In this document: positions 43,081 to 49,519 of the stretch, piece by piece
Position numbering within the stretch: position 1 is the stretch's first letter
How the letters are laid out: each line of letters starts with the position of its first letter
NCBI GenBank assembly: GCA_964348525.1
Contig: CAYGCY010000001.1
Location: 21,873-85,872, forward strand
DNA from: an uncultured Candidatus Saccharibacteria bacterium
GTDB lineage: Bacteria; Patescibacteriota; Minisyncoccia; Phycocordibacterales; Zambryskibacteraceae
Length of the DNA: 64,000 nt
Direction of reading: 5' to 3'
Translations under genes and position numbers: made by a program
The notes under the pieces: model-generated
The model's database searches: none
The model's input: the letters and a program-made list of their open reading frames with translations, nothing else
Told to the model about the DNA's origin: nothing

Positions 43081-44226
43081 ATGAATTCGTATAAAATATC
43101 GAGACAAGAAGAAGACGTACTCAAGAAAAATCTTGAAGAGAGACACGATGCGGAGGCTCTAAGAATAAGGCGCTATTTGGCAATGAAGGATCTTTCAAGA
43201 ACAGATGGAAGCCCTATAAACACTATAGTTAAGAGAGTTTTAGACCGTGAGGAATTTAGCGAATTTGACCTTATAGAAACGCCTGAAATAGTTCCTGCGG
43301 ATATAAGCTTCGATCTTTTTGATTTTCCAGACAACCACCCTGCACGAAGCAAGTCTGATACTTATTACGTAGATGATAAAAATATTTTGCGTACCCACAC
43401 TACTGTGATGTGGTATTACTATCTAAAGCAGGACTCTGTAAAGGAAAGAATGGCGAGAGGAGAGCCGGTGGGATGTTTTTCTCATGGAAAAGTGTATCGC
43501 AAGGACGAAATAGATAGACACCACATGAATGTCTTTCATCAGCTTGATGGATGGTATTTAGCGCCGAAGGATAAAGAAATAATAGGGCAAGAAGAGTTAC
43601 AGGCAGTCTTGATGTCTATTGCAAAGGCGGTATTCGGAGAAACAGTAGAGGGGAAATTTAATCCCGACACATTTCCTTATACCGATCCGTCCCTCGAGAT
43701 GGAAATTAAAAAAAATGACAAATGGATAGAAGTGCTCGGTAGCGGAGTGGTGAAAGGAAGTGTGCTTGAAAAGTTTGGGGTAGATTCTTCGAAATGGAAT
43801 GGTTGGGCTTTCGGTTTTGGTCTTGAGAGGTTGGCGATAGTTAGTATGGAGCTCCCAGACATACGACTTTTATGGTCAGAAGATGAGCGTGTTAAGAAAC
43901 AATTAATTTTGGGAAATAAATATAAAGAAGTTAGTAAATTTCCACCAGTTATTAGAGATATTTCATTTATTGTGGAGAAAAACTTTGTGTTAAATAATTA
44001 TTTTGACGCTATAAGAGATATAGGAGGTGATGAGGTAGAGGAGGTCCATTTGCTTGATAAATACGAAAACGAAGAAAAATTCGGAGCTGACAAAATTAGC
44101 TATACCTTCAGAATCACATACAGAGACATGGACAAGACTCTTACCAACGAAGAGGTAAATGCCATTCATTCTAAAATCGAAGCTATGACTGAACAGGATT
44201 ATGGGGCTAAGTTAAGACTTGTATGA
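43081..44226 (+). CDS. pheS: Single-chain (mitochondrial-type) phenylalanine--tRNA ligase: PheS-like class II catalytic core fused to a C-terminal FDX-ACB anticodon-binding domain
   Basis: class II motifs (FSHGKVYRKDEIDRHHMNVFHQLDG; GWAFGFGLERLAIV) followed by FPPVIRDISFIVEK...LDKYENEEKFGADKISYTFRITYRDMDKTLTNEEVNAIHSKIEAM typical of the FDX-ACB domain normally at the PheT C-terminus. Confidence 0.7.
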   Translation: MNSYKISRQEEDVLKKNLEERHDAEALRIRRYLAMKDLSRTDGSPINTIVKRVLDREEFSEFDLIETPEIVPADISFDLFDFPDNHPARSKSDTYYVDDKNILRTHTTVMWYYYLKQDSVKERMARGEPVGCFSHGKVYRKDEIDRHHMNVFHQLDGWYLAPKDKEIIGQEELQAVLMSIAKAVFGETVEGKFNPDTFPYTDPSLEMEIKKNDKWIEVLGSGVVKGSVLEKFGVDSSKWNGWAFGFGLERLAIVSMELPDIRLLWSEDERVKKQLILGNKYKEVSKFPPVIRDISFIVEKNFVLNNYFDAIRDIGGDEVEEVHLLDKYENEEKFGADKISYTFRITYRDMDKTLTNEEVNAIHSKIEAMTEQDYGAKLRLV

Positions 44227-44807
44227 GTTGGATTTGGAGGGTTGGGTTATCCCAAAATGAAACATCAGAAGAGTTGTTAAACAAATCTGGGCTTAAATAT
44301 GAGCAGGTTGAAGTAGAGGATGCGTTAAAAAAACATATTCCCGAAACGATTGGTAAGCCATATAAATTGCAAACCTCAATGAGGCTTGACGCCCCCAATT
44401 TTTTTAGTTGCTCATCTCTCGCCAGCTACTTGTATGTTTTTGCTGGGGTTTATATGCCAAGTTTGGTAATAGAGAAATTTAATTTTACTAAACCAATCAC
44501 TAAAGAAGAATTAAGATTCGGAGACTTTGTGTATTCATTCAATGATGCCGATGAAGATAGAAAATCACCAAACCATATGGGTATATACATGGGCGATGGA
44601 AATATTCTTCAAGCCTCAGGATATTGGTATAAAGGGCAGGTCTTAATTGAAAATATGAGCGAAAGCCCGTCCTTCAAAAATCTGATTGGATTCGGGAGAG
44701 TGGTTGACGACTTAAAAGAGAAAAGATACGTGGTCGAGATTCCAGATGACCGCGAGGATTTACGAGAGAAGGAAAATTTAATAAAGTATTTAAATTCTAA
44801 AATATGA
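44223..44807 (+). CDS. NlpC/P60 (C40) family cysteine peptidase
   Basis: Cys in FFSCSSLASYLY and His in SPNHMGIYMGDGNILQASG. Confidence 0.65.
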   Translation: MSWIWRVGLSQNETSEELLNKSGLKYEQVEVEDALKKHIPETIGKPYKLQTSMRLDAPNFFSCSSLASYLYVFAGVYMPSLVIEKFNFTKPITKEELRFGDFVYSFNDADEDRKSPNHMGIYMGDGNILQASGYWYKGQVLIENMSESPSFKNLIGFGRVVDDLKEKRYVVEIPDDREDLREKENLIKYLNSKI

Positions 44808-45370
44808 AATTAGACATTCCGTATTATTCACAATTTGACGGGATAACCATGCTTGAATGGAAAGAAAAAGGCTGTGCCCCCACCTGCCTTAAAATGTGTA
44901 TGGATTTTTATTTGGAGAAAAATAAAAAAACTGCTCCAACTATTGATGATTTAATAAAAGAAGGAGAAACAATAGGAGCGTACTTGGAAAATGTTGGGTG
45001 GAAACATGATGGATTAGTAAGAGTCGCACATAACCACGGTGTGCCAGCTTATGCCGAAGAGTTTCGTTCCGTTGAAGTAGATGTTTTAAATAAAACATTT
45101 TCTGATAATCCGCTACAAGGAGACTTGATAGATATTGGCATTCAGAGAATAAGAAATTCGCTAGACAAGGGGACTCCGGTTATTGTATCCATTCAAAACC
45201 ATGTAGGCTCTCACCAAGTAGTGGTTACTGGGTATGAAGATAATTTAGGGTCTACTACAGGGTTTTATATAAGCGACCCAGATAATAGAAATAGTGAAAA
45301 AAAGGGTGTTTTTATGCCAATGACTGACTTTTTGGCAATTTGGCGTAAATTTGCCATTTTTGTGGGTTAG
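44804..45370 (+). CDS. Peptidase C39-like (papain-fold) domain protein, translationally coupled to the NlpC/P60 gene
   Basis: YYSQ...GCAPTCLKM Cys region and downstream SHQVVVTGY His region as in Peptidase_C39_2. Confidence 0.5.
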   Translation: MKLDIPYYSQFDGITMLEWKEKGCAPTCLKMCMDFYLEKNKKTAPTIDDLIKEGETIGAYLENVGWKHDGLVRVAHNHGVPAYAEEFRSVEVDVLNKTFSDNPLQGDLIDIGIQRIRNSLDKGTPVIVSIQNHVGSHQVVVTGYEDNLGSTTGFYISDPDNRNSEKKGVFMPMTDFLAIWRKFAIFVG

Positions 45371-47510: not shown

Positions 47511-47573
47511 TTTGATTGGCAAATAAAAGGGAAATCAATTATTCTACCCATAGACCCCTTACAGGAGGTGGAT

Positions 47574-47750
47574 TGTGACGGCACGACCGGTGCATGACGC
47601 CCCCGCACAAGAGGAGAAGCCCCCTGCGGTACAGGAAGTTGTTCTTTGCCCAGAAGGCGAAGACTGTCTGAGGCCTGAGTGTCTCGTGGCAGGTCGATTC
47701 CAATGGTGCAGGCACCCGATACGCACCGGAGCTACGATTCCGGTGTCGTG
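47574..47750 (+). CDS. Cys-rich microprotein, 59 aa (MTARPVHDAPAQEEKPPAVQEVVLCPEGEDCLRPECLVAGRFQWCRHPIRTGATIPVS), ~62% GC; below ORF-track cutoff
   Basis: AGGAGG SD 6 nt before GTG, four Cys, intrinsic terminator immediately after TGA. Confidence 0.4.
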
Positions 47751-47755
47751 ACAAA

Positions 47756-47785
47756 AAGCCGCCACAGATGTGGCGGCTTTTCCAT
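47756..47785 (+). terminator. Intrinsic terminator
   Basis: GCCGCCAC-AGAT-GTGGCGGC then TTTTCCATTTTT. Confidence 0.75.
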
Positions 47786-47811
47786 TTTTGTAAAAAAGCA
47801 ACGTAGCCTAT

Positions 47812-47904: not shown

Positions 47905-47941
47905 GGAATAAAAACAAATGGGGAACCCCTAGGGGTTCCCC
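47905..47941 (-). terminator. Intrinsic terminator for minus-strand small gene
   Basis: GGGGAACCCC-TA-GGGGTTCCCC palindrome with T-run on minus strand. Confidence 0.7.
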
Positions 47942-47947
47942 ATACTT

Positions 47948-48178
47948 CTACTGCTGTTCCACAGCTTCGAACATCGAGGCCGGATTGTAGCCAGCAGTTT
48001 CCACCTGCACGTACCAGCCGATTTCCCCGTCTATCCTGAGGGGCTTCACATCTCGCACCATGTGCTGGGAGAGCGAGGTACGACCTTTCCAGCGTACCAA
48101 CTGGCCCTTCGCAAACGGTGCGGTCCCGAGACTGCCGGGAGTGTTGTCGCTTTCCAAAGACGGTTCTCCGACTTGCAT
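47948..48178 (-). CDS. Hypothetical small protein (76 aa), GC-elevated (~55%), possibly an SH3/Tudor-like beta domain
   Basis: AGGAG SD 6 nt before ATG; own terminator; convergent with the Cys-rich microprotein. Confidence 0.5.
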   Translation of the reverse strand: MQVGEPSLESDNTPGSLGTAPFAKGQLVRWKGRTSLSQHMVRDVKPLRIDGEIGWYVQVETAGYNPASMFEAVEQQ

Positions 48179-48241
48179 TCGAATCTCCTGTGCAAAGACG
48201 TGGAGAATTAAGATACCTTAAATAATTGTTTTTGTAAACCG

Positions 48242-49519
48242 CTACTGTTTTGAGGAAATATTTGCTTTTATGAAAGAGATTAAGTTTTCAATATTCATTT
48301 TTTCAGATTTCTCACCATTGCGTGCTTCAAAAGCTAGTTCTTTCGATTCAACCTCTTTGTCCCCGATAACAATATTGTAAAAAGTTTTTTCAGATTTGGC
48401 GTTACGAACCTTCTTGCCCAAGGTTTCATTTGAGCTATCTAATTCAGCTCGTATACCTGCGTCAATAAATTTTTTATAAATTTCCTCTGCAAACTCGTTG
48501 TGTGTTTCGGCAACAGTTAGTATTTTTACTTGGACTGGCGAGAGCCAAAGAGGGAAAGCCCCAGCGTATTTTTCGATGAGGAGCGCCATCGTGCGCTCTA
48601 TTGCTCCAATTGACGAGCGGTGCACCACAAAAGCTCTGTGTTCTTTGCCATCTTCGCCAATGTATTTCAAATCAAATCTTTCTGGCATACAAAAATCGTA
48701 TTGCACGGTAAACGCTGTGTCCTCCTTGCCGTTTGCGTTTTTCATTTGGATATCAATTTTGGGCCCATAGAAAGCGGCTTCATTTTTTGCTTCTTCAAAT
48801 TCTGCACCACGAGACTTCATCAACTTGCGTAGTAAATCTTCCGCTTTCTCCCACGCCTCATCATTTTTATAATATTTTTCTGTGTTTGTTCTGTCGCCGA
48901 GTGACAATCTAAATCTGTAATCCTCGTTTAGTTTCAAGCCGAACACAGATGTGATGTATTCCACTAAATCTAATGCTTTTCCAACCTCCTCCACTGCCTG
49001 TTCCTCGTCTCTACAAATGATATGTGCGTCCGCAAGACAAAATGCGCGCACTCTTTGAAGACCCATTAGTTCTCCTGACTGTTCGTAGCGATAAAGCTTT
49101 GCTAGCTCTGCAATTCTCATTGGCAAGTCTCTGTATGAACGAGGCTCTGATAGATAAAGCTCAAAATGGTGGGGGCATGTCATGGGGCGAAGCATAAACT
49201 CGTCTTCGTCTATCACGATGGGTGCGTACATTGAATCTTTGTAATGCGGATAGTGGCCGGACTTTTTATATAAATCTAGTTTTGCGATGTCTGGAGTAAT
49301 AACGTGGCTGTAACCACGTTTTATTTCTTCATCCACTATAAATCTTTCAAGTTCGCGCCTAATAGTTGCACCCTTTGCTGTAAACAAGGGGAGTCCTTTT
49401 CCTACCGTTTCGGAAAAGGTAAAAAGCCCTAATTCCTTGCCTATTTTTTTGTGGTCCCTTTCATCCATGATTGCAATTCTAACAGAAAATCTTTTGTACC
49501 AAAGTGCCTGCCGCACCAA
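48242..49519 (-). CDS. thrS: Threonine--tRNA ligase, catalytic core plus anticodon-binding domain only (no TGS or N2 editing domains); true start may be ATG at 49468
   Basis: begins at conserved RDHKKIGKELGLF; class II motifs; C-terminal anticodon-binding domain; only 425 aa versus ~640 for canonical ThrRS. Confidence 0.85.
   Translation of the reverse strand: MVRQALWYKRFSVRIAIMDERDHKKIGKELGLFTFSETVGKGLPLFTAKGATIRRELERFIVDEEIKRGYSHVITPDIAKLDLYKKSGHYPHYKDSMYAPIVIDEDEFMLRPMTCPHHFELYLSEPRSYRDLPMRIAELAKLYRYEQSGELMGLQRVRAFCLADAHIICRDEEQAVEEVGKALDLVEYITSVFGLKLNEDYRFRLSLGDRTNTEKYYKNDEAWEKAEDLLRKLMKSRGAEFEEAKNEAAFYGPKIDIQMKNANGKEDTAFTVQYDFCMPERFDLKYIGEDGKEHRAFVVHRSSIGAIERTMALLIEKYAGAFPLWLSPVQVKILTVAETHNEFAEEIYKKFIDAGIRAELDSSNETLGKKVRNAKSEKTFYNIVIGDKEVESKELAFEARNGEKSEKMNIENLISFIKANISSKQ

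What the first reader, a model, noticed from the sequence alone, without database searches (positions are those of the whole stretch)
43081..44226. Single-chain phenylalanyl-tRNA synthetase with fused FDX-ACB domain (mitochondrial-type architecture) in a bacterium
Bacterial PheRS is normally an (alpha-beta)2 heterotetramer, and the FDX-ACB anticodon-binding fold sits at the C-terminus of PheT. Here a PheS-like class II core (motifs 2 and 3 present) is fused to a ~95-aa C-terminal domain. That domain has the FDX-ACB pattern (FPPVIRDISFIVEK...TLTNEEVNAIHSKIE). This is the domain organisation of monomeric mitochondrial PheRS. It implies either that no pheT exists, consistent with a minimal-genome lineage, or that there is an additional specialised PheRS.
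Basis: partly seen in the sequence, partly recalled or inferred. Interest (0 to 1): 0.7.

Follow-up and report, generated by a model that had tools for sequence, protein, structure and literature searches.

The report
Single-chain mitochondrial-type PheRS in Paceibacteria
This ultra-small (CPR/Paceibacteria) bacterium makes its phenylalanine-charging enzyme as one short chain, the design previously described only for mitochondria, and apparently has no gene for the large second subunit found in other bacteria.

Summary
ORF 43081-44226 (+), 381 aa, has a PheS-type class II core (Pfam tRNA-synt_2d, residues 42-274, E 1e-54). This is fused to a PheT-type FDX-ACB anticodon-binding domain (residues 285-379, E 1e-23). 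The best solved relative, by sequence and by predicted fold, is human mitochondrial PheRS (TM 0.74 over the whole chain).

All Phe-pocket and ATP motifs are kept. The sister bacterial family SrmL ("PheS-related mystery ligase") has lost them.

The gene is as conserved as gyrB across 80 Paceibacteria species. It sits in a fixed housekeeping block: GT2, PheRS, gyrB, thrS, dnaE. Nothing else resembling PheS or PheT occurs in the window or in 1.3 Mb of relatives' flanks.

A published table for 17 Parcubacteria genomes counts one tRNA-synt_2d and one FDX-ACB domain per genome. It lists pheS but not pheT among core genes. In one of those genomes (C7867-005, 74% identical, same gene order) both domains lie on this fused protein.

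The protein is therefore most likely the sole, editing-less, monomeric PheRS. I could not search this genome itself for pheT.

The same design occurs in Gracilibacteria, in an Oligoflexia MAG and on huge-virus-like contigs. I found no paper describing it in bacteria.

The parts
43081..44226 (+). Complete gene for the 381-aa single-chain PheRS. The stop codon is included and overlaps the start of the next gene by 4 nt.
   Evidence: ORF. Two Pfam domains. An identical protein was found on public contigs. Homologues align from residues 1-3.
43081..43203 (+). Short helical N-terminal segment (residues 1-41). It stands where the ~100-aa coiled-coil tRNA-binding arm of canonical PheS would be.
   Evidence: No Phe_tRNA-synt_N hit. 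The E. coli PheS alignment starts at E. coli residue 109, matching query residue ~50. The AF2 model shows helices at 9-19 and 24-34.
43204..43902 (+). Class IIc catalytic core (residues 42-274), PheS type.
   Evidence: Pfam tRNA-synt_2d, E 1.4e-54. 34.6% identity to E. coli PheS over 231 aa.
43336..43347 (+). HPAR element of the motif-1 region.
   Evidence: Present in the Paceibacteria family members shown (one has HPGR) and in E. coli PheS. Replaced in SrmL. Coordinates checked.
43384..43404 (+). ILRTHTT, equivalent by my recollection to T. thermophilus His178/Ser180, which contact the substrate amino group.
   Evidence: Alignment blocks. Translation. The residue roles come from my own knowledge of the T. 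thermophilus PheRS structures.
43486..43554 (+). Motif 2: GKVYRKDEIDRHHMNVFHQLDGW, containing the ATP-binding Arg140 and the FHQxDG strand.
   Evidence: R140, F152, H153, Q154, D156 and G157 are invariant in 50 family members.
43672..43692 (+). FPYTDPS, the aromatic wall of the Phe pocket. F198 and Y200 correspond to T. thermophilus Phe258 and Phe260. T201 corresponds to human mitochondrial Thr235.
   Evidence: Residue roles are from PMC3275996. F198, P199 and T201 are invariant.
43729..43752 (+). EVLGSGVV glycine-rich floor of the pocket.
   Evidence: LGxG is kept here and in PheS and FARS2. It is changed to LExG in SrmL.
43801..43836 (+). Motif 3: GWAFGFGLERLA. Ala243 corresponds to E. coli Ala294, which sets pocket size. 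Arg250 is the motif-3 arginine.
   Evidence: The role of E. coli Ala294 is from my own knowledge.
43855..43902 (+). PDIRLLWSEDERVKKQ, equivalent to the C-terminal tail of PheS. It is the hinge region before the fused domain.
   Evidence: It aligns with the last residues of E. coli PheS (..TDLRSFFENDLRFLKQ) and with human FARS2 PDIRLFWCEDERFLKQ.
43903..43932 (+). 10-residue linker (LILGNKYKEV).
   Evidence: It lies between the two Pfam envelopes. pLDDT is lower around residues 270-290.
43933..44217 (+). FDX-ACB (PheT B8-type) ferredoxin-fold anticodon-binding domain, residues 285-379.
   Evidence: Pfam FDX-ACB positions 1-94 of 94, E 1.3e-23. E. coli PheT residues 696-794 match here and nowhere else in the window. 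The AF2 secondary structure is beta-alpha-beta-beta-alpha.

Best explanation
The gene encodes the organism's housekeeping phenylalanyl-tRNA synthetase, and it is of the single-chain, mitochondrial-type design.

Shown:
- One polypeptide carries a PheS-type class IIc catalytic core with an intact Phe/ATP site. A 10-residue linker after the PheS C-terminal tail joins it to the FDX-ACB (B8) anticodon-binding domain, which in ordinary bacteria ends the beta subunit.
- The N-terminal coiled coil of PheS and domains B1-B7 of PheT, including the B3/B4 editing site, are absent from this protein.

Inferred mechanism, by analogy with human mitochondrial PheRS:
- The enzyme works as a monomer and forms Phe-AMP in the core.
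- The FDX-ACB domain swings from the closed position seen in the model to an open position. There it reads the GAA anticodon of tRNA-Phe, and Phe is transferred to A76.
- With no editing domain, Tyr or meta-Tyr mischarging cannot be corrected in cis.

Also inferred: it is the only PheRS of the cell, and pheT has been lost. The trait is inherited vertically across Paceibacteria. A related form occurs in Gracilibacteria.
For: Architecture and fold:
- Both domains are found with strong scores.
- The best PDB sequence matches are human mitochondrial PheRS, aligned through core, hinge and FDX-ACB.
- The AF2 model has pLDDT 90.3 and pTM 0.81. It superposes on the closed form 3cmq/5mgv with TM 0.74 over 389 columns, against 0.58 on the open tRNA complex 3tup.

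Active site:
- HPAR, LRTHTT, YRKDE, FHQxDG, FPYTDPS, LGSG and GWAFGxGxERL are kept, and most are invariant in 50 relatives.
- Tyr200 in place of T. thermophilus Phe260, and Thr201 in place of Val261, are substitutions known from eukaryotic cytosolic and human mitochondrial PheRS respectively (PMC3275996).

Housekeeping status:
- Mean identity to 80 species' orthologues is 67.9%, against 65.6% for GyrB. It is 70.5% against 61.0% for DnaE, and 69.7% against 55.5% for ThrRS.
- gyrB follows on the same strand within 3 kb in 48 of 70 loci.
- The gene order is identical in L089 and L002.

Sole PheRS:
- There is no other PheS- or PheT-like sequence in the window.
- Apart from three B2-only mini-genes, there is none in 1.31 Mb of relatives' flanks.
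- Nelson & Stegen Table S2 counts one tRNA-synt_2d and one FDX-ACB in 15 of 17 Parcubacteria genomes, including closed RAAC4 and C7867-005.
- Their Table S1 lists pheS in 16 of 17 genomes and has no COG0072 (pheT) entry, although 11 other aaRS genes are listed.
- The C7867-005 protein is P0028: fused, 74% identical, same synteny.
Against: - The rest of this genome could not be searched, so a distant pheT or an archaeal-type PheRS cannot be excluded directly.
- Nelson & Stegen's Table S1 only shows that pheT is absent from at least 5 of 17 genomes. The stored copy of Table S2 is truncated before any B5 or B3_4 column.
- An intact Phe pocket does not by itself prove sole-PheRS status. An Oligoflexia MAG carries a similar intact fused gene in a non-housekeeping context and probably also has pheST.
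- The protein scores below all curated NCBIfam cutoffs: pheS_mito 227.9 < 258.35, SrmL 249.4 < 300, pheS 164.3 < 237.45.
- Motif 2 has Asp156 where most PheRS have Glu. The same Asp occurs in bona fide eukaryotic members such as Vitrella.
- No biochemistry exists. Monomer state and tRNA-Phe charging are inferred.
Confidence: 0.75

Rival explanations
1. It is an additional, specialised PheRS-like paralogue that coexists with a canonical (alpha-beta)2 PheRS encoded elsewhere in the genome. It might be a stress- or antibiotic-resistant spare, or an enzyme for a non-translational use.
For: Fused homologues with an intact pocket exist in bacteria that should have pheST, for example the Oligoflexia MAG protein P0124, which sits among metabolic genes. 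The sister family SrmL is an accessory protein of unknown role. The whole genome was not available.
Against: One tRNA-synt_2d and one FDX-ACB domain are counted per Parcubacteria genome, and pheT is absent from the core list. The gene is as conserved as gyrB, sits in a fixed housekeeping block across 80 species, and occurs in very small genomes. No second PheS-like hit was found in 1.3 Mb of flanks.
Confidence: 0.12
2. It is a member of the SrmL 'PheS-related mystery ligase' family and ligates something other than phenylalanine.
For: NF051887 (SrmL) is nominally the top NCBIfam hit (249.4 bits, E 5e-74) and covers both domains. In the NJ tree SrmL groups with the CPR clade (91% bootstrap).
Against: The score is below the curated cutoff of 300, whereas true SrmL proteins score 402-446. 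SrmL proteins have replaced the pocket: Phe258-equivalent to His, LGxG to LExG, GWAFG to GLA[LMS]G, and HPAR is lost. The query keeps every PheRS residue. SrmL is a separate clade with 100% support.
Confidence: 0.03
3. It is the catalytic chain of a reduced heteromeric PheRS. The fused alpha-B8 chain works with a small stand-alone remnant of PheT, a B2-type tRNA_bind protein that supplies extra tRNA affinity in trans.
For: In 3 of 80 species (L038, L048 Doudnabacteria, L067) a 135-148 aa tRNA_bind protein matching E. coli PheT residues 41-145 is encoded immediately upstream. In L048 it overlaps the PheRS start. The family has at least 145 clusters, all 116-212 aa with PF01588 only, and JGI calls them 'PheRS beta chain'.
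Against: No such gene occurs in the window or in 77 of 80 flanks. Human mitochondrial PheRS needs no partner (PMC3275996). The tRNA_bind domain also occurs as general Trbp111/CsaA-type proteins (my own knowledge).
Confidence: 0.07
4. It is a eukaryotic (organellar FARS2) sequence, either contaminating the assembly or recently transferred from a eukaryotic host.
For: The best PDB hits are human mitochondrial PheRS. The 50%-cluster representative P0121 passes the pheS_mito cutoff (264.3 > 258.35).
Against: The gene is embedded in bacterial housekeeping synteny that is conserved across 80 species. It lacks the ~30-residue insertion of the eukaryotic enzymes (two-segment alignment; split cores). 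It lies on the other side of the main split from the eukaryote/viral clade (91% and 73% bootstrap).
Confidence: 0.01

Closest known systems
Monomeric mitochondrial/organellar PheRS (human FARS2, PDB 3CMQ/3TUP; AARS Online family PheRS-M; NCBIfam TIGR00469)
   Same: Same two-domain chain: PheS core, the hinge motif PDIRLxWSxDxR, then FDX-ACB. No coiled coil and no B1-B7 or editing domain. 31-32% identity over the full length and TM 0.74 to the closed form. Same pocket, including Thr at the Val261-equivalent position.
   Different: It is bacterial and chromosomal, and apparently the cell's only PheRS rather than an organellar second enzyme. It lacks the ~30-residue insertion between motif 2 and the FPF strand. 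It falls below the TIGR00469 cutoff and branches in a separate bacterial clade.
Canonical bacterial (alpha-beta)2 PheRS (PheS TIGR00468 plus PheT TIGR00472; E. coli 3PCO, T. thermophilus 1PYS)
   Same: The catalytic core is homologous (34.6% identity to E. coli PheS) and the FDX-ACB domain matches PheT residues 696-794. The same Phe-recognition residues are present.
   Different: Here the two pieces are in one chain. The alpha N-terminal coiled coil and beta domains B1-B7 (OB fold, B3/B4 editing, B5, catalytic-like B6/7) are missing. No pheT is adjacent or anywhere in the window.
SrmL, 'PheS-related mystery ligase' (NCBIfam NF051887)
   Same: Same fused architecture and length class. It is the nominal best NCBIfam hit and is sister to the CPR clade in the NJ tree.
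   Different: SrmL has a remodelled amino-acid pocket, while the query keeps the PheRS pocket. The query scores 249 against the 300 cutoff, and true members score 402-446.
Single-chain PheRS genes on huge-phage or giant-virus-like contigs (P0138, P0273, P0169)
   Same: Same two domains, with lengths of 345-357 aa.
   Different: They pass the pheS_mito cutoff and cluster with eukaryotic organellar enzymes, not with the CPR clade. They sit among viral-type genes.

Membership tests
Monomeric mitochondrial-type PheRS (PheRS-M / TIGR00469) | PheS-type class IIc catalytic core | tested here: met
   Pfam tRNA-synt_2d at residues 42-274, E 1.4e-54.
Monomeric mitochondrial-type PheRS (PheRS-M / TIGR00469) | FDX-ACB (B8) anticodon-binding domain fused C-terminally in the same chain | tested here: met
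   Pfam FDX-ACB at residues 285-379, full profile, E 1.3e-23. The E. coli PheT C-terminus maps to this region.
Monomeric mitochondrial-type PheRS (PheRS-M / TIGR00469) | Whole-chain fold like solved mitochondrial PheRS | tested here: met
   AF2 model pLDDT 90.3. Foldseek top hits are 5mgv/3cmq, TM 0.74, 389 columns.
Monomeric mitochondrial-type PheRS (PheRS-M / TIGR00469) | Phe-specific pocket and ATP motifs intact | tested here: met
   Alignment blocks and invariant columns. Residue roles from PMC3275996.
Monomeric mitochondrial-type PheRS (PheRS-M / TIGR00469) | Score at or above the curated equivalog cutoff (258.35 bits) | tested here: not met
   227.9 bits. The family's 50%-cluster representative P0121 does pass with 264.3 bits.
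Monomeric mitochondrial-type PheRS (PheRS-M / TIGR00469) | No beta subunit needed or present | tested here: inconclusive
   None in the window or in 1.3 Mb of relatives' flanks. Published per-genome domain counts and the core list argue for absence. This genome was not searched as a whole.
Monomeric mitochondrial-type PheRS (PheRS-M / TIGR00469) | Active as a monomer; charges tRNA-Phe | not testable with these tools
   Needs enzyme assays and size measurement.
SrmL (NF051887) | Score at or above the curated cutoff (300 bits) | tested here: not met
   249.4 bits. True members score 402.1 and 446.5.
SrmL (NF051887) | SrmL-type remodelled pocket (His for the first pocket Phe, LExG, GLA[LMS]G, no HPAR) | tested here: not met
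   The query has FPYT, LGSG, GWAFG and HPAR.
Canonical bacterial PheS alpha subunit (TIGR00468) | Score at or above the curated cutoff (237.45 bits) | tested here: not met
   164.3 bits.
Canonical bacterial PheS alpha subunit (TIGR00468) | N-terminal coiled-coil tRNA-binding arm | tested here: not met
   No Phe_tRNA-synt_N hit at E<=1. Only 41 residues precede the core.
Canonical bacterial PheS alpha subunit (TIGR00468) | Partner pheT gene (B1-B8), usually adjacent | tested here: not met
   The downstream genes are NlpC/P60, a C39-like peptidase and gyrB. tblastn with PheT finds only the fused B8.

The most novel reading that the evidence does not exclude
The single-chain PheRS was not invented by eukaryotes. 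One ancient fusion of pheS to the B8 end of pheT arose in bacteria or their viruses. It is the ancestral PheRS of large CPR lineages (Paceibacteria, Gracilibacteria) and gave rise to the SrmL ligases. It spread on huge phages and giant viruses. From this pool, and not from domain loss in an alphaproteobacterial PheST, mitochondria obtained their PheRS, much as they obtained phage-type RNA polymerase and primase-helicase.
Probability: 0.25. Interest if true: 0.85.

Novelty: new member of a known kind. Interest (0 to 1): 0.62.

Why it matters
Reviews state that the heterotetrameric form of PheRS is conserved in all prokaryotes. They also state that the mitochondrial enzyme is the only monomeric class II synthetase core (PMC3275996). 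A whole, very large bacterial lineage using the single-chain form as its only PheRS would overturn that rule.

It would also:
- give a bacterial system for studying the smallest PheRS;
- explain why pipelines report pheS and pheT markers oddly for these genomes, and why PGAP calls the protein "hypothetical";
- imply that these cells translate without PheRS proofreading;
- reopen the question of where the mitochondrial enzyme came from.

The neighbouring ThrRS also lacks its N-terminal portion, where the editing domain normally sits. This hints at a general loss of synthetase proofreading in this lineage.

Tried and rejected
- Literature: ten full-text searches found no description of a bacterial single-chain PheRS. 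The terms covered monomeric or mitochondrial-like PheRS in bacteria, FDX-ACB plus CPR, SrmL, Parcubacteria plus pheT, TIGR00472, PheRS-M and others. AARS Online and its companion paper list PheRS-M only as the mitochondrial form.
- Direct pheT test: I could not fetch whole genomes, so this was replaced by flank scans and a published table.
- Search for a CPR PheT seeded with the stand-alone B2-like protein: it returned only 116-212 aa tRNA_bind-only proteins.
- Motif-2 Glu-to-Asp change (FHQxDG): I suspected it marked a non-Phe substrate. I rejected this because the same Asp occurs in bona fide eukaryotic organellar enzymes and other groups.
- Castelle 2017 and He 2021 supplements: no pheT information.
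- Rooting of the tree: it rests on a single outgroup (E. coli PheS) and neighbour-joining only, so only the unrooted split is used.
- GC-rich stretch after gyrB: the Rfam search gave only sub-threshold chance hits.
Full report
**1. What is there**

An ATG-to-stop ORF occupies exactly 43081-44226 on the + strand and encodes 381 aa. Pfam finds two domains and nothing else at E<=1:
- tRNA-synt_2d, the PheS-type class II core, at residues 42-274 (E 1.4e-54).
- FDX-ACB at residues 285-379, matching the full 94-position profile (E 1.3e-23).

In particular the N-terminal coiled-coil domain of canonical PheS is not found.

**2. Organism and context**

The window has about 40% G+C and strong + strand gene bias. 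It carries housekeeping genes: DnaE, GyrB, SMC, RNase R, RNase J, GroEL and ThrRS.

The closest homologues of the protein come from MAGs labelled Parcubacteria, Paceibacterota, Minisyncoccia, and Yanofsky-, Zambryski-, Doudna-, Lipton-, Harrison- and Giovannoni-bacteria. The top 120 of thousands are all 368-486 aa with the same two Pfam domains. This places the organism in the CPR class Paceibacteria.

NCBI's pipeline names many of these proteins "hypothetical protein". JGI calls them "PheRS alpha chain".

**3. Comparison with known proteins**

By sequence, the best solved relatives are the human mitochondrial PheRS entries (3cmq, 5mgu; E about 3e-55). The alignment runs through the core, the hinge (query PDIRLLWSEDERVKKQ, human PDIRLFWCEDERFLKQ) and the FDX-ACB domain. 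Bacterial PheS chains reach only 1e-34 and stop at residue 274. PheT chains match only residues 280-379.

An AlphaFold2 model built on 50 family members is confident (pLDDT 90.3, pTM 0.81). Foldseek puts the closed form of human mitochondrial PheRS first (TM 0.74 over 389 columns, rmsd 4 Å). The open tRNA-bound form 3tup gives TM 0.58, and bacterial alpha chains cover only the core.

The human enzyme aligns in two pieces because it carries an insertion of about 30 residues that the query lacks.

**4. Active site**

I aligned the query and relatives with E. coli PheS, eukaryotic organellar enzymes, viral-contig forms and SrmL. The Paceibacteria family keeps HPAR, LRTHTT, YR(K)DE, FHQxDG, FPYTDPS, EVLGSGVV and GWAFGxGxERL. 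Most of these residues are invariant in 50 members.

According to the PheRS structural review (PMC3275996):
- T. thermophilus Phe258 and Phe260 hold the substrate ring. These correspond to Phe198 and Tyr200 here.
- Tyr at the second position is the invariant state in eukaryotic cytosolic PheRS.
- Thr201 corresponds to Thr235 of the human mitochondrial enzyme.

Motif 2 has Asp156 where many PheRS have Glu. The same Asp occurs in bona fide eukaryotic members such as Vitrella (P0164), so it is not diagnostic.

**5. Relation to SrmL**

The nominal best NCBIfam hit is NF051887, "PheS-related mystery ligase SrmL". The score of 249.4 bits is below the 300-bit cutoff. The pheS_mito and pheS models are also below their cutoffs, so no curated model claims this family.

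True SrmL proteins were found among the library representatives and score 402 and 446 bits. They share the fused architecture but have rebuilt the pocket:
- His replaces the first pocket Phe.
- LGxG becomes LExG.
- GWAFG becomes GLA[LMS]G.
- HPAR is lost.

The query shares none of these changes. It works like a PheRS, not like SrmL.

**6. Is it the only PheRS?**

This is the key inference, and I could only test it indirectly.

(a) The window. tblastn with E. coli PheT hits only the FDX-ACB part of this ORF. E. coli PheS hits only this ORF. None of the long ORFs is PheT-like.

(b) Relatives' flanks. In 80 species-representative genomes the gene was found with up to 10 kb on each side, 1.31 Mb in all. 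There is no second PheS-like hit and no hit to PheT domains B3-B7. The only additional PheT-like sequences are three small B2-type genes.

(c) Published tables. The supplement of Nelson & Stegen 2015 (PMC4508563) gives Pfam marker counts for 17 Parcubacteria genomes.
- tRNA-synt_2d and FDX-ACB are each counted exactly once in 15 genomes. These include the closed RAAC4 genome and C7867-005.
- Their table of genes shared by >=13 of 17 genomes lists pheS (COG0016) in 16 genomes. It also lists argS, aspS, cysS, hisS, leuS, lysS, metG, serS, thrS, tyrS and valS.
- It has no COG0072 (pheT) entry.
- The C7867-005 protein is P0028: 382 aa, both domains, 74% identical to the query.
- Its locus has the same gene order as the window: GT2, X, PheRS, NlpC/P60, gyrB, X, thrS(-), dnaE(-). 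This matches the published locus tags pheS 01435, gyrB 01425, thrS 01415 and dnaE 01410.

In that near-complete genome, both single domain counts therefore fall on the fused protein. That leaves no separate PheS and no FDX-ACB-bearing PheT. The authors labelled the FDX-ACB column "pheT" and did not comment on the fusion.

(d) Conservation. The gene behaves like an essential gene. Mean identity to the 80 orthologues is shown below.

| Comparison gene in the same loci | Pairs | PheRS identity | Comparison gene identity |
|---|---|---|---|
| GyrB | 64 | 67.9% | 65.6% |
| DnaE | 21 | 70.5% | 61.0% |
| ThrRS | 30 | 69.7% | 55.5% |

gyrB follows on the same strand within 3 kb in 48 of 70 loci with enough flank.

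Together these points make "sole PheRS, pheT lost" the best reading. I put it at about 0.75.

**7. Origin of the fusion**

The alignment with E. coli PheS runs to its penultimate residue, which matches query residue 274. Ten residues later the B8 domain begins. This is what a deletion inside a pheS-pheT operon, removing B1-B7, would produce. That is an inference, not a demonstrated event.

In three species (L038, L048 Doudnabacteria, L067) a 135-148 aa stand-alone tRNA_bind protein is encoded directly upstream of the fused gene. It matches PheT residues 41-145, and in L048 it overlaps the PheRS start. This family has at least 145 clusters. All are 116-212 aa with PF01588 only, and no full-length PheT was found among their relatives. 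The window has no such gene. It may be a PheT remnant acting in trans in some lineages, so I keep that as a minor rival.

**8. Wider distribution**

An exhaustive HMMER search of 1.84 billion representatives found only 236 clusters at E<=1e-30. The Paceibacteria family collapses mostly into one of them (P0121). Other carriers of the same two-domain chain are:
- A clade from organisms that read UGA as a sense codon, apparently Gly. These are named Gracilibacteria or "gcode 4" bins (P0127).
- An Oligoflexia MAG, where the gene sits among metabolic genes (P0124).
- SrmL.
- Forms of about 350 aa on contigs of 160 kb, 340 kb and 32 kb that look like huge phages or giant viruses (L005, L087, L088).
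- Eukaryotic organellar enzymes, for example from Vitrella and a fern.

I built a neighbour-joining tree with 100 bootstraps on 334 columns, with E. coli PheS as the only outgroup. It splits the fused proteins into two groups:
- SrmL + Gracilibacteria + Oligoflexia + Paceibacteria (91%).
- Viral-like + eukaryotic (73%).

SrmL and the Gracilibacteria clade each have 100% support, and the core Paceibacteria clade has 98%. The window's protein is therefore not a recent import from eukaryotes. The method is simple and the root is weak, so I use only the unrooted split.

**9. Mechanism**

Shown: a single chain with an intact PheRS site and an anticodon-binding domain, with no editing domain and no coiled coil.

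Inferred from human mitochondrial PheRS (PMC3275996; PMC4394434):
- The enzyme is a monomer.
- The FDX-ACB domain moves from the closed position, which is the one the model adopts, to an open position in order to read the anticodon.
- The number of tRNA contacts is reduced.
- Tyr-tRNA-Phe cannot be edited.

The neighbouring ThrRS (48242-49519, -) matches only positions 168-564 of the 565-position thrS model. It therefore lacks the N-terminal region that, to my knowledge, carries the TGS and editing domains. This suggests a broader loss of proofreading in this lineage.

**10. Novelty**

The kind is known: monomeric mitochondrial-type PheRS. Databases hold thousands of these bacterial sequences under vague names.

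None of ten full-text searches found a paper describing a bacterial single-chain PheRS. The standard review states that the heterotetramer is conserved in all prokaryotes and that the mitochondrial enzyme is unique. I therefore rate it as a new (bacterial, lineage-wide) member of a known kind, of real interest to synthetase and CPR specialists. The main open points are the whole-genome check and biochemistry.

Noticed in passing
window 48242-49519 (-): The neighbouring threonyl-tRNA synthetase is only 425 aa. It matches positions 168-564 of the 565-position thrS model (493 bits), so it lacks the N-terminal region that to my knowledge normally carries the TGS and editing domains. This would be a second synthetase without proofreading next to the editing-less PheRS.
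   Followed up: partly
L038 9362-9808, L048 9601-10008, L067 9546-9974: A 135-148 aa stand-alone tRNA_bind protein (PheT B2-like) is encoded directly upstream of the fused PheRS in 3 of 80 species, including a Doudnabacteria MAG. The family has at least 145 clusters, all 116-212 aa with PF01588 only. JGI labels them 'PheRS beta chain'. It is not present in the window.
   Followed up: partly
L005 10001-11065; L087 8001-9047; L088 8001-9074: Single-chain PheRS genes of 348-357 aa lie on contigs of 160 kb, 340 kb and 32 kb that look like huge phages or giant viruses. They are surrounded mostly by ORFs without family matches, plus PhageMetallopep, PcfJ, ThyX, dCMP deaminase, PTH2 and a TnpB-like gene. 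They pass the pheS_mito cutoff and cluster with eukaryotic organellar enzymes.
   Followed up: partly
L006 9463-10833: The Gracilibacteria-type homologue (P0127, 456 aa) has many in-frame UGA codons. Some fall at conserved Gly positions (YN*RAFGI*VE against WNGWAFGFGLE), which fits genetic code 25. It carries an N-terminal extension of about 80 residues.
   Followed up: partly
L004 10001-11245: An Oligoflexia MAG encodes a 414-aa fused PheRS with an intact Phe pocket. It lies among metabolic genes (M20 peptidase, enolase-superfamily genes, a beta-lactamase-like gene). It is probably an extra copy beside a canonical PheST.
   Followed up: no
window 47535-47790 (+): A 56% G+C stretch lies just after gyrB in a genome of about 40% G+C. 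It folds better than shuffles (-96 kcal/mol, z -2.8) and ends in a strong terminator-like hairpin with a T run. No Rfam family reaches threshold, and there is no blastn match in the related loci. It may be a small RNA or a structured 3' UTR. The long minus-strand ORFs listed there are probably spurious.
   Followed up: partly
window 47941-48200 (-): A second 56% G+C patch holds a 76-aa ORF (47948-48178, -) between gyrB and thrS. Relatives have an unannotated small gene in the same slot (96 aa in L089).
   Followed up: no
window 44223-45370 (+): The PheRS stop codon overlaps the start of an NlpC/P60 peptidase gene by 4 nt. That gene in turn overlaps a Peptidase_C39_2-like gene, so a synthetase appears co-transcribed with two cell-wall or peptidase genes. 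The NlpC/P60 neighbour recurs in 17 of 80 species.
   Followed up: partly
SrmL representatives P0233, P0261, P0224, P0262, P0184: SrmL proteins keep motif 2/3 arginines and the FDX-ACB domain but replace the Phe-pocket residues (His for Phe, LExG, GLA[LMS]G). This points to a different amino-acid or acceptor substrate. They are sister to the CPR PheRS clade in the NJ tree.
   Followed up: partly
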